Source: Candidatus Sungiibacteriota bacterium (GTDB taxonomy: Bacteria; Patescibacteriota; Minisyncoccia; Sungbacterales; HO2-52-23). From it: a DNA stretch of 64,000 bases. Shown in pieces: positions 1 through 43,250 of the stretch; the first letter of the stretch is position 1; every line of letters starts with the position of its first letter. The stretch spans positions 16,455 to 80,454 of the forward strand of contig JACQRW010000007.1 of NCBI GenBank assembly GCA_016206285.1, in the 5' to 3' direction. The position numbers and the translations under genes are program-made. The notes under the pieces were generated by a model. The model had not been told where the DNA came from, ran no database searches, and worked only from the letters and a program-made list of their open reading frames with translations.

Positions 1-1103
1 CCAGAGAGGATTTTTGGGCGCTCAGGGATATCAACTTCACCGTTGAACAGGGCGAGGTCATAGGTATCATCGGCAAGAACGGCGCCGGCAAGTCAACGAT
101 GCTTAAAATTCTGACCGGCATCACGCCTCCCACCACAGGCGAGGCGCGCATGCACGGCCATGTTTCTTCTCTTCTGGAAGTCGGCACCGGCTTTCATCCG
201 GAACTTACGGGCCGCGAAAATATTTTTCTCAACGGCGCGATTCTCGGCATGTCCCGCCGCGATATCGTAAAAAACTTTGATGCCATTGTCGCATTTGCCG
301 GCATTGACCAGTTTCTCGACACCCCGGTGAAATATTATTCAAGCGGCATGCATGTGCGGCTTGCATTTTCCGTAGCAGCGCATTTGAAACCCGACATCCT
401 GCTGGTTGATGAAGTGCTCGCAGTCGGCGATGCCGAATTCCAGAAAAAATGCCTGGGCAAGATGGAGGAAGTGACCAAACAAGACGGCAGAACCATTCTT
501 TTCGTGAGCCACAATATGTCTGCAATTCTTAATCTCTGCACGAAAACGATCCTCCTGGATAAGGGAAAAATCGTTGAGATCGGAGAAACGCCAAAAGTAA
601 TCGATCGCTACCTCGGCAATGCGCACATGAATGCGGCAATTGATTTTCCCCAAGACCCCTCAAAGGATATACAAATCTCCCGCATCTCAATACTGAACGA
701 AACAGGAGAACCAAGCGCGCGCATTCCCATCAGCGAGAAAAGTACGATTGAGGTTGAATTCGAGGCACGCACCTCAGTGGAAGGCGCGCTGCTCTCGCTC
801 CTCATATACGCAAACGGCGAAATGCTCCTCTGGTCATCCGAATCGGACAAAAATGCTTCGTTAACCGACTACGCCCCTGGAAAATATAAAACAACAATTG
901 CGCTGCCGGCATTTCTTCTCAACGTCGGAACTTATTTTTTTGACATACGCCTGCACAAGCCATGGGTCGTGCTGCTCGATGAAAGAGCAAACCTTCCCCT
1001 GGAAATTCTTGATGTCAACAATCCCAAATCCCAGATTATGCGGGGGCATCACCCGGGCAGACTTGCAGCAGTCCTGGATTATGCCACAACAAGAACATCA
1101 TGA
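1..1103 (+). CDS. wzt: ABC transporter ATP-binding protein, Wzt/TagH-like polysaccharide exporter, 5'-truncated at window edge; carries a ~130-aa C-terminal extension typical of Wzt glycan-terminus-binding domains
   Basis: Frame of ORF 99..1103 stays open back to position 3. Upstream in-frame codons encode GKNGAGKST (Walker A). LLVDEVLAVGD (Walker B) and SHN (H-loop) are present. The nucleotide-binding domain is followed by an extra C-terminal domain (ISRISILNETGEP...). Confidence 0.85.
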   Translation, partial: REDFWALRDINFTVEQGEVIGIIGKNGAGKSTMLKILTGITPPTTGEARMHGHVSSLLEVGTGFHPELTGRENIFLNGAILGMSRRDIVKNFDAIVAFAGIDQFLDTPVKYYSSGMHVRLAFSVAAHLKPDILLVDEVLAVGDAEFQKKCLGKMEEVTKQDGRTILFVSHNMSAILNLCTKTILLDKGKIVEIGETPKVIDRYLGNAHMNAAIDFPQDPSKDIQISRISILNETGEPSARIPISEKSTIEVEFEARTSVEGALLSLLIYANGEMLLWSSESDKNASLTDYAPGKYKTTIALPAFLLNVGTYFFDIRLHKPWVVLLDERANLPLEILDVNNPKSQIMRGHHPGRLAAVLDYATTRTS

Positions 1104-1828
1104 TGAACTTACGCGCATACCGAAAAAAAATTGCTGCACGCCTTCCTGAACCGCTTCTTGAAGCGTATGTCGGCATAAAGAAAAAACTGCGCCGCATACC
1201 GCCTCATGAGCGCGTGAAATTCAACCCTCGGTCTATCTTTAAAGGCCATTTGCGCGTTACCTACCGGGGAATACCCGCAATCCGCTGTCCATTCGACTAT
1301 GTGCTGTACCAAATGCTCATCTTCGACGTAAAACCCGATCTTATTATAGATATCGGAACCAATATGGGCGGAGGCACGTTATATATGGCAGACCTCCTGA
1401 ATGCCATCGGACACGGCACGATCCATACCATTGATCTTATTGCGCAAGCGGATCCGATTATCAAAAGCCACCCCCGCATTCAGACATTCATCGGCGGGTG
1501 GCAAAATTACGACCTCGCACAAGCCAACGGCTTTAAAAAAATATTGGTGATCGAGGACGGAAGCCATATGTATGAGGACTCGATCGGAGCCTTGCGGAAA
1601 TTCTCGCCATTGGTAAGCATAGGCTCGTATTACATTGTCGAAGACAGCATCGTGTCTGAACTTGCGGATAAAAAAACAGTCATGAGAAACTACCACGGCG
1701 GTCCGCTTCGCGCCATCCGGGAATTCCTTGCATCAACCGACGCATTTGAAATCGATAAGACATACTGCAATATGTTCGGCCTCAACGCAACATTTAATAT
1801 CAACGGATATCTCAAAAAGCTAAAATAG
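1100..1828 (+). CDS. CmcI/cephalosporin-hydroxylase-family class I SAM-dependent O-methyltransferase (rhamnosyl/glycan O-methyltransferase-like)
   Basis: DLIIDIGTNMGGGTLYMA SAM-binding motif and overall CmcI-like layout. ATGA overlap with wzt stop indicates translational coupling. Confidence 0.6.
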   Translation: MMNLRAYRKKIAARLPEPLLEAYVGIKKKLRRIPPHERVKFNPRSIFKGHLRVTYRGIPAIRCPFDYVLYQMLIFDVKPDLIIDIGTNMGGGTLYMADLLNAIGHGTIHTIDLIAQADPIIKSHPRIQTFIGGWQNYDLAQANGFKKILVIEDGSHMYEDSIGALRKFSPLVSIGSYYIVEDSIVSELADKKTVMRNYHGGPLRAIREFLASTDAFEIDKTYCNMFGLNATFNINGYLKKLK

Positions 1829-1832: not shown

Positions 1833-2831
1833 ATGAAAATCCTTCTTACCGGCGGCGCCGGATTTATCGGCCACCATTTTGTCGAGCATGTGCTCAAGAA
1901 TACCGATTGGGATATTTTTATTCTTGACCGCCTGAACTATGCATCCAACGGCCTTGAGCGGTTGCGGGATATACGCGTGTTCGATGAAAAGCGGGTATTC
2001 GTATTTACCGCCGACTTTACCAAACCGATCGAGGAGGGTTTGCAGCAAGAAATCGGGCAGGTTGATTACCTTATCCATATGGGTGCAGAAACCCATGTGG
2101 ATAATTCGATTTCAGACCCCCGGAAATTCGTGTACGCAAACGTGGTCGGTACGCTTGAAGTTCTCGAGTTTGCCCGCCGCCAGAAAAATTTGAAAAAATT
2201 CATCTATTTTTCAACCGACGAAGTATTCGGACCCGCCCCTGAAGGCGTTGCATACAAAGAGTGGGACAGATACAATTCGGGCAATCCGTATGCCGCCACT
2301 AAAGCCGGCGGCGAAGAGCTGTGCCTCTCGTATGCAAACACCTATAACCTTCCCGTCATCATAACGCACACCATGAACGTGTTCGGCGAACGGCAGCACC
2401 CGGAAAAATTCATTCCCAAAGTCGTCAACCAAGTTCTCGCCGGAAAGACGGTCACTATTCATGCCAACAAAGAAAAAACCAAAGCAGGATCGAGGTTTTG
2501 GATTCACGCGCGCAATGTGGCCGGTGCGCTCCTGTTTTTACTCAGTCACGAAACAAAAAATGGCGACAAATACAATATAGTCGGCGAAAAAGAGGTTGAC
2601 AATCTTGCATTGGCCCAACTGATAGCCGCTGTCTTGAACAAAGAACTGAAATATGAAATGACGGATTTTCACTCATCCCGCCCCGGACATGACCTGCGCT
2701 ATGCTCTTGACGGAAAAAAGATGCGCGATATGGGCTGGACAATACCGCGGTCATTCGAATCGTCTCTTGAAAGCACAATCAGGTGGATGATCCATCCGGA
2801 CAATGCGCGGTGGCTCCGCATGGAAATATAA
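1833..2831 (+). CDS. NAD-dependent NDP-sugar 4,6-dehydratase/epimerase (RfbB-like extended SDR)
   Basis: N-terminal GGAGFIGHHF Rossmann motif, STDEVFG, catalytic YAATK (YxxxK); about 330 aa. Confidence 0.75.
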   Translation: MKILLTGGAGFIGHHFVEHVLKNTDWDIFILDRLNYASNGLERLRDIRVFDEKRVFVFTADFTKPIEEGLQQEIGQVDYLIHMGAETHVDNSISDPRKFVYANVVGTLEVLEFARRQKNLKKFIYFSTDEVFGPAPEGVAYKEWDRYNSGNPYAATKAGGEELCLSYANTYNLPVIITHTMNVFGERQHPEKFIPKVVNQVLAGKTVTIHANKEKTKAGSRFWIHARNVAGALLFLLSHETKNGDKYNIVGEKEVDNLALAQLIAAVLNKELKYEMTDFHSSRPGHDLRYALDGKKMRDMGWTIPRSFESSLESTIRWMIHPDNARWLRMEI

Positions 2832-2832
2832 T

Positions 2833-3753
2833 ATGGCAAAAGTATTTATCGGCATGCCCGCATACAATGGCGAGCGCTTTATCAGGGAGGCGATCGAATC
2901 CATCATCAACCAGAGCTATGCGGACTGGATCTTGTTTATTTCAGACGATGCCTCGACAGACAACACGCCTACCATCTGCAAGGAGTACGCGAAAAAAGAC
3001 AGCCGCATTGTCTATTATCGCCAGGAGAAAAATCTCGGCATATTTCCGAGTTTCAAATTCCTTCTTGACCGCGCCGAGAGTGAATATTTCATGTGGGCGG
3101 CCCATGACGATATCAGGGAAAAAGATTATTTGAAAGTATGCGTAGAGCACATGGAACAAAACACAAAACTTGGTCTTGCGACCACGCGCATGGCGGCGAT
3201 TGATTCGTTCGGCAGAACTCTGGTAGAGGAATTAGCGCTCACCCGCTTGTCCGGCAAACCGGGTTATCTCAATGTTGCACGGTATGTGCTTCAACCCGAG
3301 ATTCTCGGCAAATGCAACTTGATGTACGGCCTTTTCCGGCTTGATGCCGCCCGCGCCACATGGCAGGCCTATCCCCAAAGGCATGTCTGGGGCCAGGATT
3401 ACATGTTCTCGCTCGCATTGATAAGCCGCTATGAAATTTACGTTGACCCGCAAATTCTATTTAAAAAACGCCTGGGCGGAATTTCAAGCCCCCGGGCGCT
3501 TCTTGATGACAAAAAGGACAGCGTGCAGAAACTTGAATTCAAACAGCCAAAAAACCACATGTTTCCATTCGGAAGATTTAAGGGTTATTTTATGGGACAT
3601 ATGGAGGCATTGGCCGGAACCCCCTATCGCCCGCTCGCGGCAGTACTTTTGTTTATACGGCTGCCGCGAGCTTTTATTATCCATGTAAAGGAACGAAGCT
3701 TCAAAAAAGCCTTTAAACGCATCTTCGCTAAAATACTACTACTATGGCAATAA
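2833..3753 (+). CDS. Glycosyltransferase family 2
   Basis: MAKVFIGMPAYNGERFIREAIESIINQSY...FISDDASTDNT GT-A/GT2 N-terminal signature. ATG at 2833 lies 2 nt after the upstream stop; the ORF-track start at 2803 is likely an upstream alternative start. Confidence 0.8.
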   Translation: MAKVFIGMPAYNGERFIREAIESIINQSYADWILFISDDASTDNTPTICKEYAKKDSRIVYYRQEKNLGIFPSFKFLLDRAESEYFMWAAHDDIREKDYLKVCVEHMEQNTKLGLATTRMAAIDSFGRTLVEELALTRLSGKPGYLNVARYVLQPEILGKCNLMYGLFRLDAARATWQAYPQRHVWGQDYMFSLALISRYEIYVDPQILFKKRLGGISSPRALLDDKKDSVQKLEFKQPKNHMFPFGRFKGYFMGHMEALAGTPYRPLAAVLLFIRLPRAFIIHVKERSFKKAFKRIFAKILLLWQ

Positions 3754-4637
3754 TCGTAAAAACAGTCGGCGGATTGGGCAATCAGCTCTTCCAATATGCC
3801 CTTGGTAAGGCGGTTTCTTCGCGGCTCAATACGGAACTGCTGCTTGATATCGACACAAGTGTGATCTGGCAAGGAGTGCGGGTCCATGAATTTTCACTTG
3901 GCAATTTCAATATACCCGTACGAAAAGCGCGCGGGACAGATATGTTCGGTTTCGTAGCCTTGCGCAGGCACAAAAAATTTTTTAATTTTCTGTACCGCCA
4001 TCTGAGATTGAAAAGAAAACTCCTCCCCTTCTACTATCCGGAGCGGACATTTGCGTATGACCCGGATGTATTTTTGCAAAAAAATAATACATACTTTGAC
4101 GGTTTCTGGCAGACGGAAAAATATTTCCATGGCATCGAGAGCGAATTGCGAAAACAAATCACGCTCGCCAAACCGTTTTCGGAATACAGTCAAACAATAA
4201 GCAACGAGATCAAAAAAACCAACGCAGTGTCGCTGCACGTGCGGCGCACCGATTATGTAACGGATCCCAAGTCAAGCGTTTTTCACGGCATATGTTCTAT
4301 GCAGTATTATCAAAAGGCCATCGAATATATCGCGCAGCGGGTCGACTCGCCTCATTTCTTCATTTTTTCAGACGACTACGAGTGGTCGGTCGAGAATTTC
4401 AAATTTTTACAGTTTCCCTATACCTGCATCAGCAACGGCGCCGATAAAAACTATGAGGATATGACGCTGATGTCCCAATGCCAATACCATATCATTGCCA
4501 ACAGCAGTTTCAGCTGGTGGGGCGCGTGGCTGGATCCGCGCAAAGATAAGATAGTCATCGCCCCGAAACAATGGTTTGCCAACGCCCCAAAAAACGATAC
4601 CAAAGACCTACTCCCAGATACATGGATAAAATTATAA
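3744..4637 (+). CDS. Alpha-1,2-fucosyltransferase-like glycosyltransferase family 11
   Basis: GGLGNQLFQYA (GT11 motif I), HVRRTDY and a C-terminal ANSSFSWWGAWL motif, as in FutC/WbsJ-type enzymes. Confidence 0.8.
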   Translation: MAIIVKTVGGLGNQLFQYALGKAVSSRLNTELLLDIDTSVIWQGVRVHEFSLGNFNIPVRKARGTDMFGFVALRRHKKFFNFLYRHLRLKRKLLPFYYPERTFAYDPDVFLQKNNTYFDGFWQTEKYFHGIESELRKQITLAKPFSEYSQTISNEIKKTNAVSLHVRRTDYVTDPKSSVFHGICSMQYYQKAIEYIAQRVDSPHFFIFSDDYEWSVENFKFLQFPYTCISNGADKNYEDMTLMSQCQYHIIANSSFSWWGAWLDPRKDKIVIAPKQWFANAPKNDTKDLLPDTWIKL

Positions 4638-5069: not shown

Positions 5070-5071
5070 GA

Positions 5072-5888: not shown

Positions 5889-6011
5889 CAGTAGCACGCA
5901 AAGAGCAGATGGTCAAGTTACGTGCGGGGCAAGAAAGTATATACTTTACATAATGACAATTCATCATTGCGCAACCAAAGGCATGTCAGAAGCGTTTTAA
6001 AAAGAAATCAT

Positions 6012-7790
6012 ATGTGCGGCATTATTGCTTTAACCGGAAACAAGATACGCGAGATATCGCCTTCGCACATTGATGCGATGCTGGACTTGCTTTCCCACCG
6101 CGGGCCCGATGACCGCGGGCTTTTACCATTTTCCTCGTGCATACTGGGACAGACGCGGCTTTCGATCATTGATCTGTCCGGCGGGCATCAGCCCATGAAA
6201 GATAATCAAAAAAATATTGCGGTTACATTCAATGGGGAAATTTACAACTACCGCGAACTCAAAACCGACCTTGAACAAAAGGGGCATGTTTTCTCAACCA
6301 AGTCAGACACTGAAGTGATCCTGAAAGCATATATTCAATACGGCATTGACTGTCCAAAATATCTTGAAGGCATGTTTGCATTTGCACTCTGGGACGAAGA
6401 AAAAAAGATGCTTTTCGGCGCACGGGATCGTTTTGGTGAAAAACCCTTGTACTATGCAAAAACAAAATCAGGAGACTTTATATTCGCATCCGAGATAAAA
6501 GCGCTGCTCGCCTCGGGCACCATTGAGCCGGTTATCAATAAAGAAGCCCTAGACATCTATTTGAGCCTGGCATATGTACCGCCGCACATGACCGTCTATG
6601 AAAATATTTCCGTAGTGCCGCCGGCTTCATGTTTCGTGCTTAAAAACAGCGAGATCAAGATAGAAACATACTGGGAACTCACAAAAAAAGAGGTGTCCGT
6701 TACCTACGCGGACGCCAAAGAGGAAGTAAGAAGGATGCTCGAACAGTCAGTCAAAAAAATGATGGTCGCGGATGTGGAAGTGGGCGCGCTGCTGTCCGGC
6801 GGGGTGGACTCCACATTGGTCACCTGCTTTAGCCAGCAAACATCAAGTTTTCCGATTAAAACTTTTTCAGTCGGGTACGAACACTATATAAATGAACTGC
6901 CGTTTGCCGAACAGGTGTCGAAGAAATTCCACACCGACCACCATACGCTCCAGGCAACCGGAGAGATGGCGGAAAGTTTGCGTATGGTTTGCGGGTCGCT
7001 GGACGAACCTCACGGGGATCCCTCCAATTTTCCCCAATATCTCGTTTCTCAATTCGCCGCCTCAAAAGTAAAAGTGGCTCTTACCGGCGACGGCGCAGAC
7101 GAATTATTCATGGGATACGGCTGGTACTGGAAACACCTCAATCTCTCATGGAAAGCTGATTTTTGGGAAAAGGCATTTCCGCGGCCGTTCAAAAACTTTA
7201 TCCGAAGTATCGAAATCTTCACCGCAACCCAAAAGCGCGGACTGCTCGCCCACTCCCCCCTTCGCGCCGCTGACTTTATTCCGGAACATATTCTGCATGC
7301 GGCCGGAGACGATATCGAAAAAATAAATCTTTTCGATCTCTCTTTTTATCTGCCCGGCAAGCTTTTGTCAAAAGTAGACCGCACCGCCATGATGAGTTCG
7401 CTGGAAACCAGATGTCCGTTTCTTGACCGCGAACTTGCCGAGTTTGTCTATAACCTGCCGCGAAATTTCAAGACGGACAAAAACAGCGGAAAGATCATCC
7501 TAAAAGACATCTTGTCCGATATCATGCCGCGCGATTTCGTATACCGCAAAAAACAGGGATTCGGAGCGCCGGTCAAAGTCTGGCTTGAAATCGAGACCAT
7601 GAGAAAGCTCGTTGCCGAAACCTTTGACAACAATGCGCCATTCTATGAATACATAGATAAAGAAGAGGTGCAGAAACTGCTTAAAAATTTTTACAGCAAA
7701 ACAGACGAGACGGTATATTATAAGATATGGACACTGCTTTGTCTCGGCCTTTGGTTTCAAACTCATCCTTCGACTAGCTCAGGATTGTAA
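6012..7790 (+). CDS. asnB: Asparagine synthase (glutamine-hydrolysing) family amidotransferase (AsnB/WbpS-like)
   Basis: N-terminal MCGI (class II glutamine amidotransferase Cys nucleophile), SGGVDS PP-loop and the whole AsnB architecture. Start taken at the internal ATG encoding MCGIIAL. Confidence 0.85.
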   Translation: MCGIIALTGNKIREISPSHIDAMLDLLSHRGPDDRGLLPFSSCILGQTRLSIIDLSGGHQPMKDNQKNIAVTFNGEIYNYRELKTDLEQKGHVFSTKSDTEVILKAYIQYGIDCPKYLEGMFAFALWDEEKKMLFGARDRFGEKPLYYAKTKSGDFIFASEIKALLASGTIEPVINKEALDIYLSLAYVPPHMTVYENISVVPPASCFVLKNSEIKIETYWELTKKEVSVTYADAKEEVRRMLEQSVKKMMVADVEVGALLSGGVDSTLVTCFSQQTSSFPIKTFSVGYEHYINELPFAEQVSKKFHTDHHTLQATGEMAESLRMVCGSLDEPHGDPSNFPQYLVSQFAASKVKVALTGDGADELFMGYGWYWKHLNLSWKADFWEKAFPRPFKNFIRSIEIFTATQKRGLLAHSPLRAADFIPEHILHAAGDDIEKINLFDLSFYLPGKLLSKVDRTAMMSSLETRCPFLDRELAEFVYNLPRNFKTDKNSGKIILKDILSDIMPRDFVYRKKQGFGAPVKVWLEIETMRKLVAETFDNNAPFYEYIDKEEVQKLLKNFYSKTDETVYYKIWTLLCLGLWFQTHPSTSSGL

Positions 7791-8969: not shown

Positions 8970-9005
8970 GTATACAAATTCTCACGATCGTGAGAATTTG
9001 TATAC
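8970..9005. promoter_or_regulatory. 36-bp perfect palindrome GTATACAAATTCTCACGATCGTGAGAATTTGTATAC between two glycosyltransferase genes
   Basis: Begins 1 nt after the stop of the upstream gene and ends 9 nt before the next ATG. A second copy of the same architecture occurs at 29596..29631. Confidence 0.55.
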
Positions 9006-9014
9006 TAACGATAC

Positions 9015-10909: not shown

Positions 10910-10920
10910 TTATATCTACG

Positions 10921-31355: not shown

Positions 31356-31380
31356 ACTTTAAACTTTTTTATATCGCCTT

Positions 31381-35582: not shown

Positions 35583-35587
35583 GTCAG

Positions 35588-36418: not shown

Positions 36419-36426
36419 AAAATGAA

Positions 36427-37584
36427 TTATCGCGGACGTTCCATAAAACCCAAGATTGCCCGTGCACGATTTTCCCATGTGTACTGCTGCACTTTGACAA
36501 ATGCAGCCGGGACAAGCGCCTCGGCGATTTCCGGATGCTCCATTGCCTTTTGTATGCCCGCGGCAAGTTCCAGCGGATCATCCGGCACCACAAGAATCGC
36601 GCTTGCATCATCCACAATCTCGGTGATTGAAGGGATGCGGGATGCTACAATCGGCCGCTTGCTCGCCATATATTCAAACAGCTTCATCGGCGAGGTATAG
36701 TATTTTGAAATATCCTCTTTTGCGGTATTAGGCAGCACCAGGACATCGCCAGCTTTTTGCCATAGCGGCATTTCCTGATGAGAACGATAACCCTCGATCC
36801 GTATCTTTGGGTTGCTGCCGTACGCTTGACGAAAACGCATAATATCGTCTCCCGAACCTCCTATAAATACCACCAGAAAGCCGTCCGGAAGGTAATTGGC
36901 GGCCTCGGCCAGCGTATCCACACCCTTCCAGACAAACAAACTTCCCGTATAGATAACCATATATCGCTTATGCTCCAGATGCAAGAGGCGCCGCGCTTCT
37001 TCCTTGGTTGCCGTAATGTCAAAAAGCCCTATGTCCACGGCATTAGGCTGGTACAAAACCTTAGGCGCACTTTCGGGAAAGAGCTCCTGAAATTTCTTTG
37101 CTTTCCATTTGTTGTGGATCAAAATCCAGCGCATACTGCGGCAAAAGCGGGCAAAGAGAAACAGCTTGCTTTCCGGAAAGTCATGCATCTCATAAAACGT
37201 ATTGCAAAAAGAAAAAGAACACAGCCATAGCGGCAAGATCTCATTCGAGTAGACGATATCCGTTTTTACCGCACATCGCAGAAGATATCGCCAAGAGCTT
37301 AGCGCAAAAGATAAAGAGATCAGAAAAAAATTAACCGCATCAGGGATCCCCCATCGATAGCCATCCATTATAGGAAGGAAGATAACGGAAAAGTTTTTAC
37401 GGATGCCGTAATGCGTAAACGGATCCGCTACCAGACGTCCGATACGCCGAGGCACCAACAGCGTCACGTCCACTCCCTCTGCCGCAAACACTTCGCAGCT
37501 TTTCGCGGCAAAAAGCGCCGCCGCCTTCTCGCTCGGAAATCTGCCCCCATACATGACAAACATGCGCCGTCTTTGTTTTTGCAT
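36427..37584 (-). CDS. Glycosyltransferase family 4
   Basis: SPMKLFEYMASKRPIVAS EX7E motif. Confidence 0.75.
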   Translation of the reverse strand: MQKQRRRMFVMYGGRFPSEKAAALFAAKSCEVFAAEGVDVTLLVPRRIGRLVADPFTHYGIRKNFSVIFLPIMDGYRWGIPDAVNFFLISLSFALSSWRYLLRCAVKTDIVYSNEILPLWLCSFSFCNTFYEMHDFPESKLFLFARFCRSMRWILIHNKWKAKKFQELFPESAPKVLYQPNAVDIGLFDITATKEEARRLLHLEHKRYMVIYTGSLFVWKGVDTLAEAANYLPDGFLVVFIGGSGDDIMRFRQAYGSNPKIRIEGYRSHQEMPLWQKAGDVLVLPNTAKEDISKYYTSPMKLFEYMASKRPIVASRIPSITEIVDDASAILVVPDDPLELAAGIQKAMEHPEIAEALVPAAFVKVQQYTWENRARAILGFMERPR

Positions 37585-37606
37585 AATCTATCGTTTTACG
37601 ATGTCC

Positions 37607-38662
37607 TTATATTTTTAGTTCCATTATGCACATGATTTTCTCGATCAACCCTTCGACGCGATGATGTTCAACCACAATAGCACGCATTGAGTGCCTAAGA
37701 TCGTCACGAGCAAGAATATCCATGTGCATGAGCACCATGAGCTTTTTTGCAAGCTCAACAGAGTTCTTTTTTTCAAACATGAGCAGGTCGCAATGTTTTC
37801 CAAGTACGTCCATATACGCCTCGTTGCACGTCAACACAGGGAGTCCGGTTGCCATGGCCTCGAGCCCGGCTTTGTCGAGACTGCCGGTAAGTCCGGTGTT
37901 CACGAAAATATCGGCACTTTGAAGATACACCAAAATATCTTTATGCGGCACTCCGCCAATAAACCGGATATGCGGTCCCATTTTTTTTTCTTTAACCGCA
38001 CGATACAGTTCCTCGGCATAGGACTCCTGCCCCCCACGACCCGCACTGCCGATAATATCCGCCTCAAACCGCTCGCCAGCCTCCGCAAGCAATACAAGCG
38101 CTTGTATCAGCGTCTGCTGATCTTTTGCCGGGGAAAGTCTGCCAATCATGATAATCTTTGGCACTACATTTTCTTGCCGCACGATAGGAGCAAAGTGATC
38201 CGTATCAATCCCCTGGCCGACAATACGCACCTTCTTACTTGGCAGTCTGAAGCCGCTTGCTGTCGAGGTAAATATGACATCAGCCATTTTCTCCCCGGCG
38301 CGCAAAGACATACTTATTGCCCCATGCGCATACCAAAGTGATATTTTTTTCCGAAGCAGCCGCCACTCCAACCATCCCAATATGACATAAATCTGATTCA
38401 TATGCACAAACACCGCATCATATGCATTTCGCTCGCGCCAGATTAAATACCAGAAACGCAGCGCGTATCGTAAGCGGGATGACCCGCGCTCTTTTCCCAG
38501 AGAAAAAACTTTCACGTTCTGCGGCAAATGATGCGTTCCTTCTTCAAGACAAATCACCGCCAGCGCCTCGCACCGTTTGGCGAATTCCTCGATCCACCGG
38601 TGCATAAATCCAAGCACCTGGTCCCGCTCGTCAACTTTTTGCGTGATAATCAGTAATTTCAT
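37607..38662 (-). CDS. Glycosyltransferase family 4
   Basis: GLEAMATGLPVL and overall GT-B layout. Confidence 0.75.
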   Translation of the reverse strand: MKLLIITQKVDERDQVLGFMHRWIEEFAKRCEALAVICLEEGTHHLPQNVKVFSLGKERGSSRLRYALRFWYLIWRERNAYDAVFVHMNQIYVILGWLEWRLLRKKISLWYAHGAISMSLRAGEKMADVIFTSTASGFRLPSKKVRIVGQGIDTDHFAPIVRQENVVPKIIMIGRLSPAKDQQTLIQALVLLAEAGERFEADIIGSAGRGGQESYAEELYRAVKEKKMGPHIRFIGGVPHKDILVYLQSADIFVNTGLTGSLDKAGLEAMATGLPVLTCNEAYMDVLGKHCDLLMFEKKNSVELAKKLMVLMHMDILARDDLRHSMRAIVVEHHRVEGLIEKIMCIMELKI

Positions 38663-38681: not shown

Positions 38682-39863
38682 CTACTCCTTCCTCTTGCGT
38701 GTCTGTATATAGACTATTTCGTCTTTACTAATTTGAAACGCACTAGAGCTATCTCCATCTTTCCCAACGACGAAGACAAATTGACTAGATTCTCCAATCA
38801 AGAATAAATGCCGCTCCTTAGAAAGAGGAAGTTCTTGCTTCATTTTAACCTCGACTTCTCTAGGCTCACCACCACCAATAGAGAAAGGGATCCTTGGAAA
38901 AATGATTTGCCCAAACAAAATAAGAGCGCCGATAATTGGAATAAAGATGTGCTGAAATGTTAGTTGCAAGCTGTTAAGTGAGTTCACACTGCCGAAACTT
39001 TTGAATATATCCAACGATAATCCATCTTTAGGAAGATAGAAGTTCAGAAAAAAGTAAGTGGTGAGAATAGTGACATAGAACCATGCGAAAACTAAATTAG
39101 GAGTTAATGTTTGATGACTATTAAAAGAATTAAAATCAAATAGGCTGACTTTAAGTTTCAGATAGGAGTAATAAGCGATACTTGCTAAGACGCAGAGAAT
39201 GAGAGTCTCTATAGAACACCTTAAGAGATATAACGGGGTTAAGAGCTTTTTTTCCGCTTTGGGATTTTCTTGAATCTCTTCTTTTTTTACTTCATCGGCA
39301 CTAAGGGGTTCTTTTTTTCTTCTTGGAACATTGTCTTGGATAATAAAAATGAGGACTAAAACCAGAAATGCGATGAGGGAGTACGAAAATGCGTATATGG
39401 CAAATTTAATAATAAAATTAGAACCACCGCCTAGTTTCAAGTTAAATCCATCGATAAAATAACCAATAAAATCATAATTTCCAAACCATGGTTTAAAAGT
39501 AAGACTCTCTTCCTTTGCTGGAGAGATGTACTTTCCTAGATCAAAGAATAAAGAGAGGGCATAGCTAGCACCCCATATTAGTGACCAAAACGTAAAGTAA
39601 GATTGAAAGCGATCAGACCAGCCCTCTACATCATAAATTTTTTTCAGAGAAACATCCTTGTATAACCGCCACACGATTAATAGGACAAGAGTAATTGCAA
39701 GAAAAGAGAAAAAGCCAGCAATAATAAATCGGGAATTAACTACATCGAAACTTACAATGCCAAAACGGGCAAAATATGAAGTTAGCGAGATAAAGCCAAA
39801 AAGATAAAGTACAACTCCGCAGGCAACAAATAATTTTGATATCTCTTTCACTTTCTCAAACAT
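38682..39863 (-). CDS. Polytopic integral membrane protein, low GC (candidate Wzy-like polymerase/ligase or other glycan-processing membrane protein)
   Basis: 393 aa with about 10 hydrophobic segments; markedly AT-rich relative to neighbours. Confidence 0.5.
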   Translation of the reverse strand: MFEKVKEISKLFVACGVVLYLFGFISLTSYFARFGIVSFDVVNSRFIIAGFFSFLAITLVLLIVWRLYKDVSLKKIYDVEGWSDRFQSYFTFWSLIWGASYALSLFFDLGKYISPAKEESLTFKPWFGNYDFIGYFIDGFNLKLGGGSNFIIKFAIYAFSYSLIAFLVLVLIFIIQDNVPRRKKEPLSADEVKKEEIQENPKAEKKLLTPLYLLRCSIETLILCVLASIAYYSYLKLKVSLFDFNSFNSHQTLTPNLVFAWFYVTILTTYFFLNFYLPKDGLSLDIFKSFGSVNSLNSLQLTFQHIFIPIIGALILFGQIIFPRIPFSIGGGEPREVEVKMKQELPLSKERHLFLIGESSQFVFVVGKDGDSSSAFQISKDEIVYIQTRKRKE

Positions 39864-39888: not shown

Positions 39889-41016
39889 CTATACTGTACA
39901 TATCTCAAAACTCTTCCGGTACAATTCAAGATATTCGGCTTCGCTGTGGGGTTTTATTTCGGCAACCGTACGGCGGGCAGCATCTACAAATGCGCGCCGC
40001 TTTTCCGGATGGCGATAGAGATCAAGGACCGCATCCAGAAACGCCGGAGCGTCTCCAACCGGCACTACTCGGCCATTCACGCCGTCTTTGACCACCTCTC
40101 CGGCCAACCCTACATCCGTCATCACCAGCGACACTCCGGCCGCCATTGCTTCTATCGCAACCAATCCCCACCCTTCGTAGTTTGACGAAACCAACACAAT
40201 ATCGAAACATTTATAAAACGATGCAAGATCGTTGCGCCACGGTTCAATGAGAACATTTTTCTCCAATTGATAATTGATAATTGATAATTGATAATTTTTC
40301 CTGTCCGGTCCATCGCCGACCAGCACGAGTACCGTGCGAGGTTCTTGCTTCACCAACTCAGCCATCATCTCGATCAACATGCTGAAATTCTTTTCCTTGT
40401 CTACAAAACGCCCGACTGCGATCATACGAAAGGCATATTCTTTGAGACGGGACAGATCCTCAGCCTTGGGAGATGAATAAGAGAACGACGCAAGATCTGT
40501 ATATATCGGCAATACGGAAATTTTCGATTTCGGGATACGCAACCCGGCAAGCAATGAACGCTTGATGCGCTCGCTCACTACGCGTACGCAATCAGCCCGC
40601 GGGAGCAGAAATCGAGCCAGTAGAACACGAAAATATTCCTTCAGGGATGCCCGCCGGTACAGCGGATTCAAGACATCGGTATGCACTTGCAGCTGCAGTT
40701 TAATGCCAAAACGCCGGGAAATATGAAAAGCAATCAATCCGACTTCGTCAGGCCCTTGTGTGCTAACCACGTCAAAATGAACGGAGCGAGCAAGCGAACG
40801 CGCAATCGTACGCATGCGCCAGCGGCCCATAAATGGATTTTTAGCCGATGCCGGATACAGAAAAAGTTTCCCGCTTTGCTGATTTTCAGACTCGGGCCCT
40901 GCCAATACTACGACATGCAACTCATCAAAAAGCTCCGCATAGCGCTCTATGCGTTTTCGCGCGTTGCTTCCGGCAACGCAGATATTCGGGTCTTCTGAAA
41001 GCATTAAAATCTTCAT
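39889..41016 (-). CDS. Glycosyltransferase family 4 (contains an internal 7-nt x4 tandem repeat)
   Basis: GLVAIEAMAAGVSLV GT4 C-terminal motif. AATTGAT x4 at 40264..40296 encodes NYQLSIINYQL. Confidence 0.75.
   Translation of the reverse strand: MKILMLSEDPNICVAGSNARKRIERYAELFDELHVVVLAGPESENQQSGKLFLYPASAKNPFMGRWRMRTIARSLARSVHFDVVSTQGPDEVGLIAFHISRRFGIKLQLQVHTDVLNPLYRRASLKEYFRVLLARFLLPRADCVRVVSERIKRSLLAGLRIPKSKISVLPIYTDLASFSYSSPKAEDLSRLKEYAFRMIAVGRFVDKEKNFSMLIEMMAELVKQEPRTVLVLVGDGPDRKNYQLSIINYQLEKNVLIEPWRNDLASFYKCFDIVLVSSNYEGWGLVAIEAMAAGVSLVMTDVGLAGEVVKDGVNGRVVPVGDAPAFLDAVLDLYRHPEKRRAFVDAARRTVAEIKPHSEAEYLELYRKSFEICTV
40264..40296. repeat. Tandem heptanucleotide repeat (AATTGAT)x4 plus partial, inside a GT4 coding sequence
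   Basis: Direct reading of the sequence: aattgataattgataattgataattgataatt. Confidence 0.8.
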
Positions 41017-43250
41017 ATGTTTTTAAGCAGTGTTGAAATCTCGTTCAGCATTCGCGCAGTGGAAAATGATTCAGCTTTTTTCCGTGCACGCTCAGACAAC
41101 CTACCGGCGAAATGATGATCATTCAGAATTCGCATAACCGCAGCCTGCATTTGGCCAATATCGTTCCAATCGAAAAATAATCCAGTTTCTCCGTCCTGAA
41201 TGAGTTCAATATTTCCTCCGGCCCTGGTTGTGCAGATCGGAATACCGACTGCCATTGCCTCAAGCAGCGTGTGGGAAAACCCCTCGTAGGCAGTATTGAG
41301 TATAAAAATATCTCCCGCAACAAACGCCGCAAGCACATCCTCATGGGATAGATTGCCGGCAAGCGAAACAATTGCCTCTGTATGATACTCGTGAATCTTT
41401 TGAGCGAGAGATTCGCGCTCCGGACCACTGCCGATAATCACAATATGAATATCGGGAATATCCTTTTGTAGTTCTCTACCAAGCTCGATAAGGGCGTTAA
41501 AGCCCTTCCATGGCACAAGCCGGCCCACAGAAACGAGAACAGTCCCTACAAGACCAAGCTTTTTTCGCGCCTCATCTTTGGAAAGCGTACGCGCCGGAAG
41601 ATCAAACGCGTTATAAATCACCGTAATCCGTTCCGGTTCAATGCCCCATTGTGTTATAACATCCCGCAAATATTCGCTGGGTACCACAATCGCATCAGCA
41701 CGATTGGCGCTCCACTTTTGCAATCGGCGAAACAACTCCACTTTCCATCCGTATTTTTTCTTCAAAAATTGATCCAGCCGGTCAGATATGCCGAACCGCT
41801 GGCTGCCCTGCTCCCATGCGTAATCACCCACGATTTTAAGCACGAATTTCTTGCGAAGCAGTATTGCAGCCACGGCCACAGGAATCCCGACCGAAACCGG
41901 ATCTTGGGCAAAAATAACATCAGCATGAATGCTCTTTAAAAATACTTTCCAGAAATATGCGACATGACGGACCAGCTTCGGCATATGCCGCACGGTACGA
42001 AACGGCAACACCGTCACCGCAAGCCCGGCTTTTGGCAATTCCTCCTGCAGCAGCTTACTGTACGTCGCCGGCCCGCCGATTTCAGGCGGGAAAATTCCAG
42101 TGGCAATCAGAATATGCCTGCGAGCCGCCAACACCCGACCAAAGACCTCTTCATACTGTTTGGCAATCGAATCCCAAAGGAAGCGCTCTCGTACCATCTT
42201 ATTTCCGTTCTCAATAATTGATGTGCGTAACTGCGGATCATGCAGCAGGAGCATTATCTTTTCCGCGGCATCTTGCGAATCGTCCACATGCGCAAATAAT
42301 CCAGTTTTCCCATCGGCAATAATATCCGTGATCCCGCCCACCGGAGTACCGATGATAGGGAGACCCGCGGCAAGCGCCTCTACAAAAGAAACCCCCATGC
42401 CTTCGGACCGGGACAAACGCACAAAAATATCAGCCCGGGCAAGATGCGATGGCACGTCCGCAAAAGGAATGCTGCCTAAAAATTTGACCTCGTTTTCAAC
42501 TCCGAAATCCCGTGCAAGACGCTCAAGCGCCATCCTATCCGGCCCGTCTCCAAGAATATGGCACTGGATGAGTTTGACAGTCTTTTTTAACAGAGCAATT
42601 GCGTGAATAAGCGTATCAACGCCGTTTTTTTCCACTAAGCGCGAGGTAGTGATGATAACAGGCGCAGTGATTGAAGTCTCACTTCGATCAAATTTCGGGG
42701 TAAATTTTTCAATGGTGACACCGTTATGGATGGTATCAATCACGCCTTCATAGCCATAGGCACGGGCGACATTTCCCAGATATGAAGAAATAACAGTGAC
42801 TCCGTCCGCGTGATTTAGCATCTGCCGAAGTGCCGCGCCGATCATGCCAAGTCTGCCCGACGCAAGCCGGCTATCGCCGTACCCGTATTGGATATTAAGA
42901 ACAAACGGGCATCGGGGCAGCAGTATTTTACAAAACAAAGCGGCAACGGAACCTTGTGAAATATCTACTCCCAATAATACGGCCTTCTCTCCTTTGCCGA
43001 TATTCCGCCAAGCAACAATACAACCCAAAAATGGCAGGAGCCACTTATCCAGTCCGGAGCCAAAGCCCACCCTGATCACATTTCCTTCGGCACGAGCCTC
43101 GCGCTTTGGGAGAGCGCGGGAAAACCTGGCCGTCACAATAGAAACATCAAATGTATCCTGAAGTCTTAAGCTTATTTCCTTGATTGCCGTCTCAACCCCT
43201 CCGACAAAGGGATAATATGCGGTCGTGAAAATAATAAGTTTTCTTTTCAT
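41013..43250 (-). CDS. Bidomain glycosyltransferase (two GT4/GT-B modules fused, 745 aa)
   Basis: Two separate GT4 C-terminal motif regions (RSEGMGVSFVEALAAGLPII and YEGFSHTLLEAMAVGIPI). Confidence 0.75.
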   Translation of the reverse strand: MKRKLIIFTTAYYPFVGGVETAIKEISLRLQDTFDVSIVTARFSRALPKREARAEGNVIRVGFGSGLDKWLLPFLGCIVAWRNIGKGEKAVLLGVDISQGSVAALFCKILLPRCPFVLNIQYGYGDSRLASGRLGMIGAALRQMLNHADGVTVISSYLGNVARAYGYEGVIDTIHNGVTIEKFTPKFDRSETSITAPVIITTSRLVEKNGVDTLIHAIALLKKTVKLIQCHILGDGPDRMALERLARDFGVENEVKFLGSIPFADVPSHLARADIFVRLSRSEGMGVSFVEALAAGLPIIGTPVGGITDIIADGKTGLFAHVDDSQDAAEKIMLLLHDPQLRTSIIENGNKMVRERFLWDSIAKQYEEVFGRVLAARRHILIATGIFPPEIGGPATYSKLLQEELPKAGLAVTVLPFRTVRHMPKLVRHVAYFWKVFLKSIHADVIFAQDPVSVGIPVAVAAILLRKKFVLKIVGDYAWEQGSQRFGISDRLDQFLKKKYGWKVELFRRLQKWSANRADAIVVPSEYLRDVITQWGIEPERITVIYNAFDLPARTLSKDEARKKLGLVGTVLVSVGRLVPWKGFNALIELGRELQKDIPDIHIVIIGSGPERESLAQKIHEYHTEAIVSLAGNLSHEDVLAAFVAGDIFILNTAYEGFSHTLLEAMAVGIPICTTRAGGNIELIQDGETGLFFDWNDIGQMQAAVMRILNDHHFAGRLSERARKKAESFSTARMLNEISTLLKNI

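What the first reader, a model, noticed from the sequence alone, without database searches (positions are those of the whole stretch)
1..43250. Exceptionally large ABC-transporter-dependent glycan locus with 7 methyltransferases and a Wzt carrying a terminus-recognition domain
The window opens inside a wzt gene; the wzm permease is presumably upstream, outside the window. The Wzt has an extra C-terminal domain, as in E. coli O8/O9a, where it binds a methyl/phosphomethyl chain-terminating cap. The locus contains at least 7 SAM methyltransferase domains: 1100, 19597, 27248, 28048, 28821, 30651, and within 32525..34162. In Wzt-dependent systems, non-reducing-end methylation regulates chain length. 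So many methyltransferases suggest a heavily O-/C-methylated and capped polymer. No Wzx flippase or confidently assigned Wzy was seen, consistent with the ABC route.
Basis: partly seen in the sequence, partly recalled or inferred. Interest (0 to 1): 0.6.

Follow-up and report, generated by a model that had tools for sequence, protein, structure and literature searches.

The report
Capped-glycan ABC export island in CPR bacterium
A tiny-genome candidate-phylum (Sungbacteria) bacterium devotes at least 50 kb to building methylated, probably fucose-containing surface sugars, exported by a known type of ABC pump that checks the end of the sugar chain; the machinery is familiar, but it has not been described in this lineage.

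Summary
The window opens inside wzt. A 99.6%-identical contig shows wzm directly upstream. The Wzt C-terminus is a true Wzt carbohydrate-binding domain: Pfam scores it just above threshold, and an AlphaFold model's top 17 PDB matches are all Wzt CBDs, best the Aquifex CBD bound to 3-O-methyl-mannose. All seven methyltransferase domains are real: five pass Pfam thresholds and two are divergent class-I paralogues. The window has no Wzx or Wzy. A Wzy_C+TPR protein lies about 5 kb upstream of wzm and is probably a ligase or O-oligosaccharyltransferase.

The source is a Candidatus Sungbacteria MAG (Patescibacteria/CPR), a group reported to lack LPS. The closest analogue is therefore Gram-positive S-layer glycan clusters, not the O9a O antigen. 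Relatives keep a core of gmd-fcl-degT-wzm-wzt-MT-GT2-GT11-asnB-GT4-GT2. In one relative the CBD, the adjacent methyltransferase and GT2 diverged together while their neighbours stayed 77-95% identical, which supports a cap-and-reader link.

The remaining 30 kb is modular: sugar tailoring, an ATP-citrate-lyase-like triad, and a polyprenyl-P-sugar synthase-MT fusion with a GT-C enzyme. "One heavily methylated polymer" is unproven. I rate it a new member of a known kind, of moderate interest.

The parts
3..1103 (+). wzt, 5'-truncated by the window edge. The nucleotide-binding domain runs to about base 600 and the C-terminal Wzt-type carbohydrate-binding domain spans about 600-1100.
   Evidence: Pfam gives ABC_tran and Wzt_C. 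The best PDB sequence hit is Aquifex Wzt (E 3e-69). The CBD model has pLDDT 89.6, and its top 17 Foldseek hits are all Wzt CBDs.
1100..1828 (+). RMNT_CmcI-family O-methyltransferase overlapping the wzt stop; candidate cap-forming enzyme.
   Evidence: 116 bits. An MT at or near this position is conserved in relatives. It co-varies with the CBD.
1833..2831 (+). SDR nucleotide-sugar dehydratase/epimerase.
   Evidence: It resembles dTDP-glucose 4,6-dehydratase at 263 bits, below the cutoff.
2803..3753 (+). GT2 glycosyltransferase (GT2a); candidate transferase for the terminal residue.
   Evidence: It is 52% identical in L004 while its neighbours are 77-95% identical.
3744..4637 (+). GT11 (alpha-1,2-fucosyltransferase family) glycosyltransferase.
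   Evidence: gmd and fcl lie upstream.
5922..7790 (+). Glutamine-dependent AsnB-type amidotransferase; part of the conserved core.
   Evidence: The P. alvei S-layer glycan cluster has an asparagine synthase homologue, WsfA.
7794..9884 (+). GT4 (7794-8969) and GT2 (9015-9884); the end of the conserved core.
9929..21823 (.). Tailoring and nucleotide-sugar block: aldo-keto reductase, SDR (10921-11970, -), ALS-like ThDP enzyme (11972-13813, -), class I/II aminotransferase (13838-15223, -), NDP-sugar-dehydrogenase-like gene (15072-16040, -), two NUDIX genes, two 4,6-dehydratase-like SDRs (17396-19399, +), sugar C-methyltransferase (19597-20847, -) and an unknown gene (20996-21823, -).
   Evidence: The SDR and ThDP enzyme are syntenic in L004 at 83% and 90% identity.
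21985..23823 (+). Two GT2 glycosyltransferases.
23820..26486 (+). Split ATP-citrate-lyase-like triad: a succinyl-CoA-synthetase-beta-like subunit with a citrate-binding domain, an alpha subunit, and a citryl-CoA-lyase-like protein.
26483..27199 (+). Hexapeptide-repeat acyl/acetyltransferase.
27248..29576 (+). Three methyltransferases: Methyltransf_11 (27248-28039), DUF268 (28048-28824) and the divergent class-I MTx1 (28821-29576).
29649..32544 (+). GT11 (29649-30620), the MTx2 paralogue (30621-31355) and GT4 (31381-32544).
32525..34222 (-). Fusion of a polyprenyl-phosphate-sugar-synthase-type GT2, a class-I methyltransferase and two C-terminal TM helices.
   Evidence: The best PDB hits are DPMS, ArnC and GtrB.
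34155..35645 (-). GT-C glycosyltransferase (PMT_2) with at least 8 TM helices.
   Evidence: It is adjacent to the fusion gene in seven other loci.
35588..38662 (-). Nucleotidyltransferase (35588-36478) and two GT4 genes (36427-37584 and 37607-38662).
38682..39863 (-). 393-aa polytopic membrane protein of unknown family; not Wzy, Wzx or WaaL.
39889..43250 (-). GT4 (39889-41016) and a two-module GT4-GT4 protein (41013-43250).
   Evidence: two GT4 stretches, 263 bits.
43247..50855 (-).

Best explanation
The region is a glycan-biosynthesis island of a Candidatus Sungbacteria (Patescibacteria/CPR) bacterium. Its conserved core is a cap-gated, ABC-transporter-dependent pathway.

Shown:
- gmd and fcl (GDP-L-fucose supply) and a DegT-type enzyme lie just upstream.
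- They are followed by wzm, a wzt carrying a jelly-roll carbohydrate-binding domain, an O-methyltransferase, GT2, GT11, an AsnB-type amidotransferase, GT4 and GT2.

Inferred mechanism:
- Cytoplasmic glycosyltransferases build a fucose-containing, O-methylated glycan on a polyprenol carrier.
- A terminal residue is added (candidate enzyme: GT2 at 2803) and O-methylated (candidate enzyme: the RMNT_CmcI methyltransferase at 1100).
- The Wzt CBD reads this cap, and Wzm/Wzt then exports the finished chain.
- The upstream Wzy_C+TPR protein transfers the chain to a surface acceptor. CPR bacteria are reported to lack LPS, and Wzy_C+TPR is the architecture of S-layer and pilin O-oligosaccharyltransferases, so the acceptor is most likely a protein.

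The other 30 kb adds separate modules:
- Nucleotide-sugar tailoring, including a C-methyltransferase.
- An operon of GT2s, an ATP-citrate-lyase-like triad, an acetyltransferase, four methyltransferases, GT11 and GT4.
- A minus-strand operon in which a polyprenyl-P-sugar synthase-methyltransferase fusion and a GT-C enzyme perform extracytoplasmic glycosylation, alongside five GT4 modules.

Most of the seven methyltransferases probably methylate internal or side-chain sugars rather than the cap.
For: - Identity of the parts.
- Organism.
- CBD: Pfam Wzt_C above threshold. The full-length protein aligns with Aquifex Wzt into the CBD. The AlphaFold model has pLDDT 89.6. Foldseek's best hit is 8dky, the Aquifex CBD with 3-O-methyl-mannose (E 6e-7, TM 0.65/0.75), followed by 5hno and 2r5o.
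- In that system a methyl cap is read by the CBD together with a hinge-helix Tyr (PMC9445017). Here Y256, L319/L320 and H371 align with Tyr232/233, Ile299/Leu300 and His350.
- Core synteny in four CPR relatives, each with an O-methyltransferase next to or near wzt.
- In L004 the CBD is 59% identical, the methyltransferase 29% and GT2a 52%, against 77-95% for Wzm, the NBD and seven other neighbours. In L036 all three are 77-80%.
- The CBD evolves faster than the NBD: median 42% versus 76% identity over 120 homologues.
- Wzy_C+TPR lies upstream and is adjacent to wzm in L037. The S-layer glycan clusters provide the precedent: Wzm/Wzt, a methyl cap, a Wzy_C(+TPR) O-OTase and an AsnB homologue.
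- The GT2-MT fusion is of the DPMS/ArnC/GtrB type and is always paired with the GT-C. The three-component precedent, including in ABC-dependent systems, is in PMC11127046.
Against: - There is no biochemical or glycan-structure data.
- The Pfam Wzt_C score is marginal, and a CBD-only profile finds no solved CBD by sequence.
- The Aquifex pocket residues Asn313, Thr346 and Ala348 are replaced here by Glu, Asp and Arg, and no equivalent of Trp362 could be aligned. The ligand is therefore unknown.
- The co-variation argument rests on one divergence event.
- No initiating phosphoglycosyltransferase, no flippase for the polyprenyl-P-sugar and no coiled-coil terminator was found in the window.
- The ATP-citrate-lyase-like triad usually sits in non-glycan or UDP-GlcNAc contexts elsewhere, so part of the region may not be glycan-specific.
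- wzm and the Wzy_C gene were seen on a 99.6%-identical contig, not on the window's own contig.
Confidence: 0.6

Rival explanations
1. One reading: all 14 glycosyltransferase genes and seven methyltransferases across 1-43250 build a single heavily O-/C-methylated polymer. Wzm/Wzt exports it after a methyl or phosphomethyl cap, as in E. coli O8/O9a.
For: - The genes are contiguous and tightly packed, with overlapping stops and starts.
- Homologues from all three parts of the window (GT4a/GT2b, GT2d/C-MT/DUF268/GT11b/MTx, PMT_2/GT2-MT/GT4s) cluster together within 17-21 kb in metagenome loci L043 and L045.
- A two-module GT4 resembles the WbdA polymerase architecture.
Against: - ABC-dependent polymers usually need few glycosyltransferases.
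- The minus-strand module occurs in seven loci with no wzm/wzt within 10 kb.
- A GT-C with a polyprenyl-P-sugar synthase acts outside the cytoplasm, after export.
- No locus protein matched a kinase family in the Pfam or NCBIfam scans, and no coiled-coil ruler was found.
- The organism is not expected to make LPS.
Confidence: 0.15
2. The CBD reads something other than a methyl group, for example a unique terminal sugar, an acyl or amide substituent, or an internal epitope. The methyltransferase next to wzt then methylates internal residues.
For: - Solved Wzt CBDs with the same fold bind different caps: methyl, methyl-phosphate and Kdo.
- Only part of the Aquifex methyl pocket is conserved (one search compared).
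- In L038 the gene next to wzt is not a methyltransferase, and the RMNT_CmcI gene lies 7 kb away.
- AsnB and acyltransferase genes offer other terminal chemistries.
Against: - The best structural match is the methyl-sugar-bound CBD.
- An O-methyltransferase immediately follows wzt here, in L036 and in L037, and is one gene away in L004.
- The methyltransferase shows the sharpest co-divergence with the CBD.
Confidence: 0.2
3. The transporter is a TagGH-like exporter for a teichoic-acid-type polyol-phosphate polymer of a monoderm envelope.
For: TarH and TagH are significant PDB hits to the NBD (E 2e-54 to 2.5e-45). CPR cells are thought to be monoderm.
Against: - Aquifex Wzt scores better and aligns into the C-terminal domain.
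- The C-terminal domain has the Wzt CBD fold.
- No locus protein matched a glycerol/ribitol-phosphate transferase family in the Pfam scans; the one nucleotidyltransferase in the locus (35588-36478) has no specific assignment.
Confidence: 0.03

Closest known systems
Aquifex aeolicus WzmWzt O-antigen ABC transporter with cap-binding CBD (PDB 7k2t, 8dku, 8dky, 6o14; PMC9445017)
   Same: It is the best sequence hit to the full Wzt (E 3e-69, with the alignment running into the CBD) and the best structural hit to the CBD model. Both have an ABC-2 permease plus an NBD-CBD fusion. A hinge-helix Tyr and a CBD His are retained. A deoxyhexose/hexose glycan with an O-methyl cap is plausible in both.
   Different: CBD identity is only 19%. 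Pocket residues Asn313, Thr346 and Ala348 are not conserved, and no Trp362 equivalent could be aligned. Aquifex is a diderm that ligates the polymer to lipid A-core, whereas this organism belongs to a group reported to lack LPS. The sugar supply here is GDP-L-fucose (gmd and fcl), not D-rhamnose/mannose.
S-layer glycan (slg) clusters of Geobacillus stearothermophilus NRS 2004/3a and Paenibacillus alvei (PMC2943079)
   Same: Both are ABC-dependent glycan pathways in bacteria without LPS, with wzm-wzt placed just upstream of the glycosyltransferases. Chain termination there is by O-methylation of the terminal sugar, which Wzt is predicted to read. Both have a Wzy_C O-oligosaccharyltransferase with a TPR region (WsfB) and an asparagine synthase homologue (WsfA). 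Start and stop codons overlap in both.
   Different: In Geobacillus the methyltransferase is a domain of the trifunctional WsaE, whereas here it is a standalone 242-aa RMNT_CmcI protein. The slg clusters are much smaller than this region (my own recollection, about 16-24 kb, not checked here), against at least 50 kb here. They use dTDP-rhamnose rather than GDP-fucose. The acceptor protein here is unknown.
E. coli O9a/O8 and K. pneumoniae O3/O5/O7/O12 terminator-Wzt systems: WbdD, WbdA, WbbB (PMC3482155, PMC11231755)
   Same: Export requires a capped chain that a Wzt C-terminal module reads. The CBD fold is the same (2r5o and 5hno rank among the top hits). Multi-module GT4 polymerase-like proteins are present in both.
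   Different: Those terminators carry a coiled-coil molecular ruler, and in O9a/O3/O7 a kinase as well. Neither was detected here (no kinase family matched). CBD identity is 11-16%. Their product is LPS O antigen.
Three-component extracytoplasmic glycosylation: GtrA/GtrB/Gtr*, ArnC/ArnT, Ppm1/Pmt (PMC11127046)
   Same: A GT2 of the DPMS/ArnC/GtrB type lies next to a GT-C enzyme, and the pair is conserved in seven other loci. Such systems are known to decorate ABC-exported polymers.
   Different: The synthase carries an inserted class-I methyltransferase domain between the GT2 and the two TM helices. No GtrA, SMR or MATE flippase was found in the window.

Membership tests
CBD-dependent Wzm/Wzt ABC-transporter glycan export | An ABC-2 permease (Wzm) encoded next to the ATPase. 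| tested here: met
   L001 is 99.6% identical over the 4331-nt overlap. Its ABC2_membrane gene (7015-7833) lies directly upstream of wzt (7840-9099). The same arrangement is seen in L004, L036, L037 and L038. The gene lies outside the window itself.
CBD-dependent Wzm/Wzt ABC-transporter glycan export | A Wzt nucleotide-binding domain closer to O-polysaccharide Wzt than to other ABC ATPases. | tested here: met
   Aquifex Wzt scores E 2.6e-69, against TarH 2e-54, TagH 1e-51 and mycobacterial RfbE 2e-43.
CBD-dependent Wzm/Wzt ABC-transporter glycan export | A C-terminal jelly-roll carbohydrate-binding domain (Pfam Wzt_C). | tested here: met
   PF14524 scores 32.3 bits against a gathering score of 30.4. 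Most homologues carry PF14524. The model has pLDDT 89.6. Foldseek ranks 1-17 are all Wzt CBDs, E 6e-7 to 4e-5. The CBD alone finds nothing by sequence in the PDB.
CBD-dependent Wzm/Wzt ABC-transporter glycan export | A cap-binding pocket that recognises a specific non-reducing-end modification. | tested here: inconclusive
   Y256, L319/L320 and H371 align with Aquifex Tyr232/233, Ile299/Leu300 and His350. Asn313, Thr346 and Ala348 align with Glu333, Asp367 and Arg369. The ligand cannot be inferred.
CBD-dependent Wzm/Wzt ABC-transporter glycan export | A dedicated chain-terminating enzyme in the locus. | tested here: inconclusive
   An RMNT_CmcI methyltransferase overlaps the wzt stop. An O-methyltransferase is conserved at or near that position and co-diverges with the CBD. 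Its activity and its position on the glycan are untested.
CBD-dependent Wzm/Wzt ABC-transporter glycan export | No Wzx flippase or Wzy polymerase is needed. | tested here: met
E. coli O9a / Klebsiella-type terminator with molecular ruler (WbdD, WbbB) | A terminator protein carrying a long coiled coil that sets chain length. | tested here: not met
   A crude heptad heuristic found no segment longer than 35 residues in any locus protein. The candidate terminator is only 242 aa. The method is weak and no dedicated coiled-coil predictor was available.
E. coli O9a / Klebsiella-type terminator with molecular ruler (WbdD, WbbB) | A kinase domain for a methyl-phosphate cap (O9a, O3, O7). | tested here: not met
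   No locus protein matched a kinase family in the Pfam or NCBIfam scans.
LPS O antigen | The polymer is ligated to lipid A-core by WaaL. | not testable with these tools
   The rest of the genome is not available. A related Parcubacterium was reported to lack lipid A/LPS genes (PMC5220378). The term 'O antigen' is therefore not applied.
Gram-positive S-layer glycan (slg) pathway | A Wzy_C-domain O-oligosaccharyl:protein transferase, often with TPR. | tested here: met
   L001:3-2192(-) scores Wzy_C 59.6 bits (gathering score 31.7) with a weak TPR_19 match of 20.5 bits, below its gathering score of 25. A 35%-identical 725-aa Wzy_C protein with faint TPR hits is adjacent to wzm in L037. WsfB and PglL have the same architecture. 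Transferase activity is untested.
Gram-positive S-layer glycan (slg) pathway | A glycosylated S-layer protein as acceptor. | not tested
   No S-layer protein was identified. The PKD/LTD and 1239-aa PG_binding proteins downstream are only candidate acceptors.
Three-component extracytoplasmic glycosylation | A polyprenyl-phosphate sugar synthase (GT2, GtrB/ArnC/DPMS type). | tested here: met
   The best PDB hits are DPMS 5mlz (1e-19), ArnC (3.5e-17) and GtrB (4e-13). Two C-terminal TM helices are present.
Three-component extracytoplasmic glycosylation | A GT-C glycosyltransferase. | tested here: met
   PMT_2 scores 30.8 bits against a gathering score of 26.1, with at least 8 TM segments. The gene is adjacent to the synthase here and in seven loci. 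It has no PDB sequence hit.
Three-component extracytoplasmic glycosylation | A small flippase (GtrA, SMR or MATE). | tested here: not met
   No such ORF was found in a six-frame TM scan of the window.

The most novel reading that the evidence does not exclude
Patescibacteria/CPR bacteria widely use a cap-and-reader ABC pathway of the S-layer-glycan type to coat surface proteins with methylated, fucose-rich glycans. The cap-forming GT2 and methyltransferase and the Wzt CBD are exchanged together as a cassette, giving strain-level surface variation that could govern host attachment or phage evasion. A CPR-specific ATP-citrate-lyase-like module supplies the acetyl-CoA needed to acetylate amino sugars.
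Probability: 0.25. Interest if true: 0.65.

Novelty: new member of a known kind. Interest (0 to 1): 0.45.

Why it matters
CPR bacteria have very small genomes and live attached to or dependent on other cells, yet the make-up of their envelope is still called unclear (PMC5220378). This genome spends at least 50 kb, with 14 glycosyltransferase genes and seven methyltransferases, on surface glycans. One Parcubacterium genome was reported to have 20 glycosyltransferases in total.

The same wzm-wzt(CBD)-methyltransferase-GT2-GT11-asnB core recurs across many Patescibacteria. This suggests that a capped, methylated, fucose-type glycan is a major and conserved surface feature of the group. No paper in the searchable library connects Wzt with Patescibacteria, CPR or Saccharibacteria.

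The joint divergence of the CBD, the methyltransferase and GT2 gives a testable handle on how cap and reader co-evolve. The mechanism itself is well known from Aquifex, E. coli/Klebsiella and Gram-positive S-layer glycans, so this extends a known system rather than revealing a new principle.

Tried and rejected
- Searching the CBD alone against the 5.8-billion-protein word index found nothing. That search was wasted.
- The CBD alone by phmmer, and a 25-sequence CBD profile, against PDB sequences gave only spurious hits such as WD40 proteins. Only the fold comparison worked.
- The exact NCBI Wzt (P0016) is not on record in the contig index. The upstream context therefore comes from a 99.6%-identical Logan contig.
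- I tested the hypothesis that the ATP-citrate-lyase-like triad is a glycan-specific acyl-CoA supplier tied to the hexapeptide transferase, and did not find support. The triad is conserved in about 24 Patescibacteria genomes, but the acyltransferase accompanies it only once. The contexts vary: GlmS/GlmU in two, a ThDP enzyme with an aldolase in two.
- Teichoic-acid export (TagGH) was considered and rejected, as set out under the rival explanations.
- NCBIfam gave no equivalog-level names for most tailoring enzymes, so sugar identities beyond GDP-fucose remain open.
- Mann et al. 2019 (Glycobiology), a survey of Wzt CBMs and terminators, is not held. I could not check whether CPR sequences were included there.

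Full report
**What is in the sequence**

Six-frame ORF listing and Pfam/NCBIfam scans give a dense gene map. Bases 3-1103 encode the last 366 residues of an ABC ATPase. It scores ABC_tran at 79 bits and Wzt_C at 32.3 bits, against a gathering score of 30.4.

Downstream on the plus strand lie:
- an RMNT_CmcI O-methyltransferase (1100-1828, overlapping the wzt stop);
- an SDR, a GT2 and a GT11;
- an AsnB-type amidotransferase, a GT4, a GT2 and an aldo-keto reductase.

A mixed-strand block from 10.9 to 21.8 kb holds an SDR, an acetolactate-synthase-like ThDP enzyme, a class I/II aminotransferase, a nucleotide-sugar-dehydrogenase-like gene, two NUDIX genes, two 4,6-dehydratase-like SDRs, a sugar C-methyltransferase and an unknown gene.

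A plus-strand operon (21985-32544) holds two GT2s, a split ATP-citrate-lyase-like triad, a hexapeptide acyltransferase, four methyltransferases, a GT11 and a GT4.

A convergent minus-strand operon runs from at least 49238 down to 32525. In order it encodes a 1239-aa PG_binding protein, a TPR protein, a PKD/LTD protein, a two-module GT4, a GT4, a 393-aa membrane protein, two GT4s, a nucleotidyltransferase, a PMT_2 GT-C enzyme and a GT2-methyltransferase fusion.

In total, 1-43250 holds 14 glycosyltransferase genes (15 soluble GT modules plus the GT-C) and seven methyltransferase domains.

**Checking the observation**

wzm is outside the window. Logan contig L001 overlaps the window start with 16 mismatches in 4331 nt. 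It carries an ABC2_membrane gene directly upstream of a 419-aa wzt.

Five methyltransferase domains pass Pfam thresholds. The two that do not (28821-29576 and 30621-31355) are 59%-identical paralogues with a 45-residue identical block and the SAM motif ILDIGAGVGG. A search of 1.84 billion representatives found 1437 relatives. A profile of 60 of them hits only SAM methyltransferases in the PDB (best RlmG, E 4e-5). Of those 60 members, 39 individually match the Pfam MTS model. They are a divergent class-I methyltransferase family.

**The Wzt C-terminal domain**

By sequence alone it is hard to place. phmmer and a 25-sequence profile of the domain find no solved CBD.

The full-length protein aligns best with Aquifex aeolicus Wzt (E 3e-69), and that alignment runs into the CBD.

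An AlphaFold model of the domain is confident (pLDDT 89.6, pTM 0.85). Its top 17 Foldseek matches in the PDB are all Wzt CBDs:
- first the Aquifex CBD bound to 3-O-methyl-D-mannose (8dky, E 6e-7, TM 0.65/0.75, 19% identity);
- then the Kdo-cap-binding O12 domain (5hno);
- then the E. coli O9a domain (2r5o).

In Aquifex the methyl cap is held by Ile299, Leu300, Asn313, Thr346, Ala348, His350, a trap loop, Trp362 and the hinge-helix Tyr233 (PMC9445017). By the alignment the equivalents here are L319, L320, E333, D367, R369, H371 and Y256. The hydrophobic pair, the His and the Tyr are kept and the rest is not. The fold and general mechanism transfer, but ligand specificity does not.

**Whose genome it is**

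Exact matches to two window proteins are NCBI proteins of a MAG named Candidatus Sungbacteria bacterium, on a 104,717-bp contig. This organism belongs to the Parcubacteria/Patescibacteria group.

The 120 best Wzt homologues listed are 57-100% identical over the full length. Those that carry a source organism name are labelled Patescibacteria-group lineages such as Paceibacterota, Pacebacteria and Vogelbacteria, and most carry Wzt_C.

Among these homologues the CBD is much less conserved than the NBD: median 42% versus 76% identity. This is what one expects of a specificity domain.

A curated Parcubacterium genome was reported to have 20 glycosyltransferases in all, no lipid A/LPS genes and an envelope of unclear structure (PMC5220378). 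The O-antigen vocabulary is therefore inappropriate here.

**Comparative anatomy**

Upstream on L001 lie three sugar genes:
- gmd (515 bits, cutoff 415);
- fcl (498 bits, cutoff 500);
- an RfbH-like DegT enzyme.

This is a GDP-L-fucose supply, and it matches the two GT11 genes.

Further upstream, on the opposite strand, is a 730-aa protein with Wzy_C (59.6 bits) and a weak TPR match below the Pfam threshold.

Four relatives keep the core wzm-wzt(CBD)-[O-methyltransferase]-GT2-GT11-asnB-GT4-GT2:
- L036: an RMNT_CmcI methyltransferase immediately follows wzt.
- L004: RMNT_CmcI is one gene away.
- L037: a TylF-type methyltransferase follows wzt, and a Wzy_C(+TPR) protein adjoins wzm.
- L038: the RMNT_CmcI-GT2-GT11 trio lies 7 kb downstream.

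The identities are informative:
- L036: CBD, methyltransferase and GT2a are 80%, 79% and 77% identical to the window, much like their neighbours.
- L004: Wzm is 95%, the NBD 87% and seven other neighbours 77-87%. The CBD is 59%, the methyltransferase 29% and GT2a 52%.

This joint divergence of exactly three genes or domains is the best evidence here that GT2a plus the methyltransferase make the feature the CBD reads. It is a single event, so it is suggestive rather than proof.

**The rest of the region**

The GT2 of the 565-aa fusion is of the polyprenyl-phosphate-sugar synthase type. Its best PDB hits are DPMS, ArnC and GtrB. It has two C-terminal TM helices and an inserted class-I methyltransferase domain.

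A metagenome scan found 35 relatives. In seven loci with enough flank, the PMT_2 GT-C lies immediately upstream, with homologues of GT4c-e, the two-module GT4, MTx, GT11b and DUF268 nearby. None has wzm or wzt within 10 kb.

This is the logic of three-component extracytoplasmic glycosylation, which is also known to decorate ABC-exported polymers (PMC11127046). No small flippase was found here.

In L043 and L045, homologues from all three parts of the window cluster together. The modules therefore tend to travel together, but whether they feed one glycan or several cannot be decided from sequence.

The methyltransferases are paired with glycosyltransferases: DUF268 with GT11 in five loci, MTx with GT11/GT4, and the fusion protein. 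This argues that most methyl groups go on internal or side-chain residues.

The ATP-citrate-lyase-like triad is conserved in about 24 Patescibacteria genomes. In two of them it lies between GlmS and GNAT/CofD/GlmU-like genes. In two others it follows an HMGL-like aldolase and a ThDP enzyme. It is probably a general CPR module for acetyl-CoA or another acyl-CoA, co-located here with an acetyltransferase, and not a glycan-specific invention.

**Mechanism and comparison**

The best-supported model is a cap-gated ABC pathway of the kind worked out in Aquifex, E. coli/Klebsiella and Gram-positive S-layer glycan clusters.

The last of these is the closest overall. Those clusters have wzm-wzt just upstream of the glycosyltransferases, a terminal O-methyl cap that Wzt is predicted to read, a Wzy_C O-oligosaccharyltransferase with TPR (WsfB), and an asparagine synthase homologue (WsfA) (PMC2943079).

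Two features differ from the O9a/Klebsiella paradigm. No coiled-coil ruler was found by a crude heuristic (PMC11231755). No locus protein matched a kinase family in the scans.

**Shown versus inferred**

Shown here:
- the gene content;
- the CBD fold;
- the synteny;
- the co-divergence.

Inferred:
- the methyl cap;
- its reading by the CBD;
- the protein acceptor;
- the role of the GT-C module.

**Verdict**

It is a new member of a known kind of system in a lineage where it has not been described; no paper in the library links Wzt with Patescibacteria, CPR or Saccharibacteria. Interest is moderate.

Noticed in passing
window 23820-27199; loci L008-L031: A split ATP-citrate-lyase-like triad (SCS-beta-like with a citrate-binding domain, SCS-alpha-like, citryl-CoA-lyase-like) is translationally coupled to a GT2 upstream and a hexapeptide acyltransferase downstream. 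The triad is conserved at 45-62% identity in about 24 Patescibacteria genomes. In L011 and L009 it lies between GlmS and GNAT/CofD/GlmU-like genes. In L016 and L024 it follows an HMGL-like aldolase and an ALS-like ThDP enzyme. It may supply acetyl-CoA for amino-sugar acetylation in organisms that are thought to lack a TCA cycle.
   Followed up: partly
window 32525-34222 (-) with 34155-35645 (-); loci L041-L045, L056, L071: An unusual fusion combines a DPMS/ArnC/GtrB-type polyprenyl-P-sugar synthase, a class-I methyltransferase and two TM helices. It is always directly downstream of a PMT_2 GT-C enzyme. This suggests the lipid-linked sugar donor, or the product, is methylated.
   Followed up: partly
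window 28821-29576 and 30621-31355: Two paralogous divergent methyltransferases are 59% identical and share a 45-residue perfectly identical block. The underlying 215-nt DNA repeat is 85% identical. This looks like recent duplication or gene conversion. The family has about 1400 representative members and no Pfam model of its own.
   Followed up: yes
window 38682-39863 (-): A 393-aa membrane protein family has about 15 members. It has a nearly invariant C-terminal motif, F-P-R-I-P-(F/Y)-x-(I/M)-G-G-(G/A)-(E/Q)-P-R (window sequence FPRIPFSIGGGEPR), followed by a small beta domain. It has no Pfam or NCBIfam match and no recognisable fold. It is embedded among GT4 genes here but sits in unrelated contexts elsewhere.
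   Followed up: yes
L001 3-2192 (-), about 5.8 kb upstream of the window start: A 730-aa Wzy_C+TPR protein (truncated by the contig end) is oriented divergently from the gmd-fcl-degT-wzm-wzt operon. A 35%-identical homologue adjoins wzm in L037. It is a candidate glycan ligase or O-oligosaccharyltransferase.
   Followed up: partly
window 43247-49238 (-): Three predicted envelope proteins lie upstream of, and in one case overlap (ATGA), the glycosyltransferase operon: a PKD/LTD protein with N- and C-terminal TM segments, a TPR protein with an N-terminal TM, and a 1239-aa protein with PG_binding_1. They are possible glycosylation substrates or cell-wall anchors.
   Followed up: no
window 10921-16040 (-); L004, L036, L038: The ALS-like ThDP enzyme is 90% identical in L004, more conserved than Wzt. 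In L036 and L038 it is replaced by transketolase/E1-like genes at the same position. This suggests interchangeable two-carbon-transfer chemistry for an unusual sugar or acyl substituent.
   Followed up: no
window 62347-63964 (-): Two adjacent ORFs (195 aa and 339 aa) both match the SufBD core domain, next to SufS-like (60580-61845) and NifU-like (59599-59958) genes. This is an ordinary Fe-S assembly cluster, unrelated to the finding.
   Followed up: no
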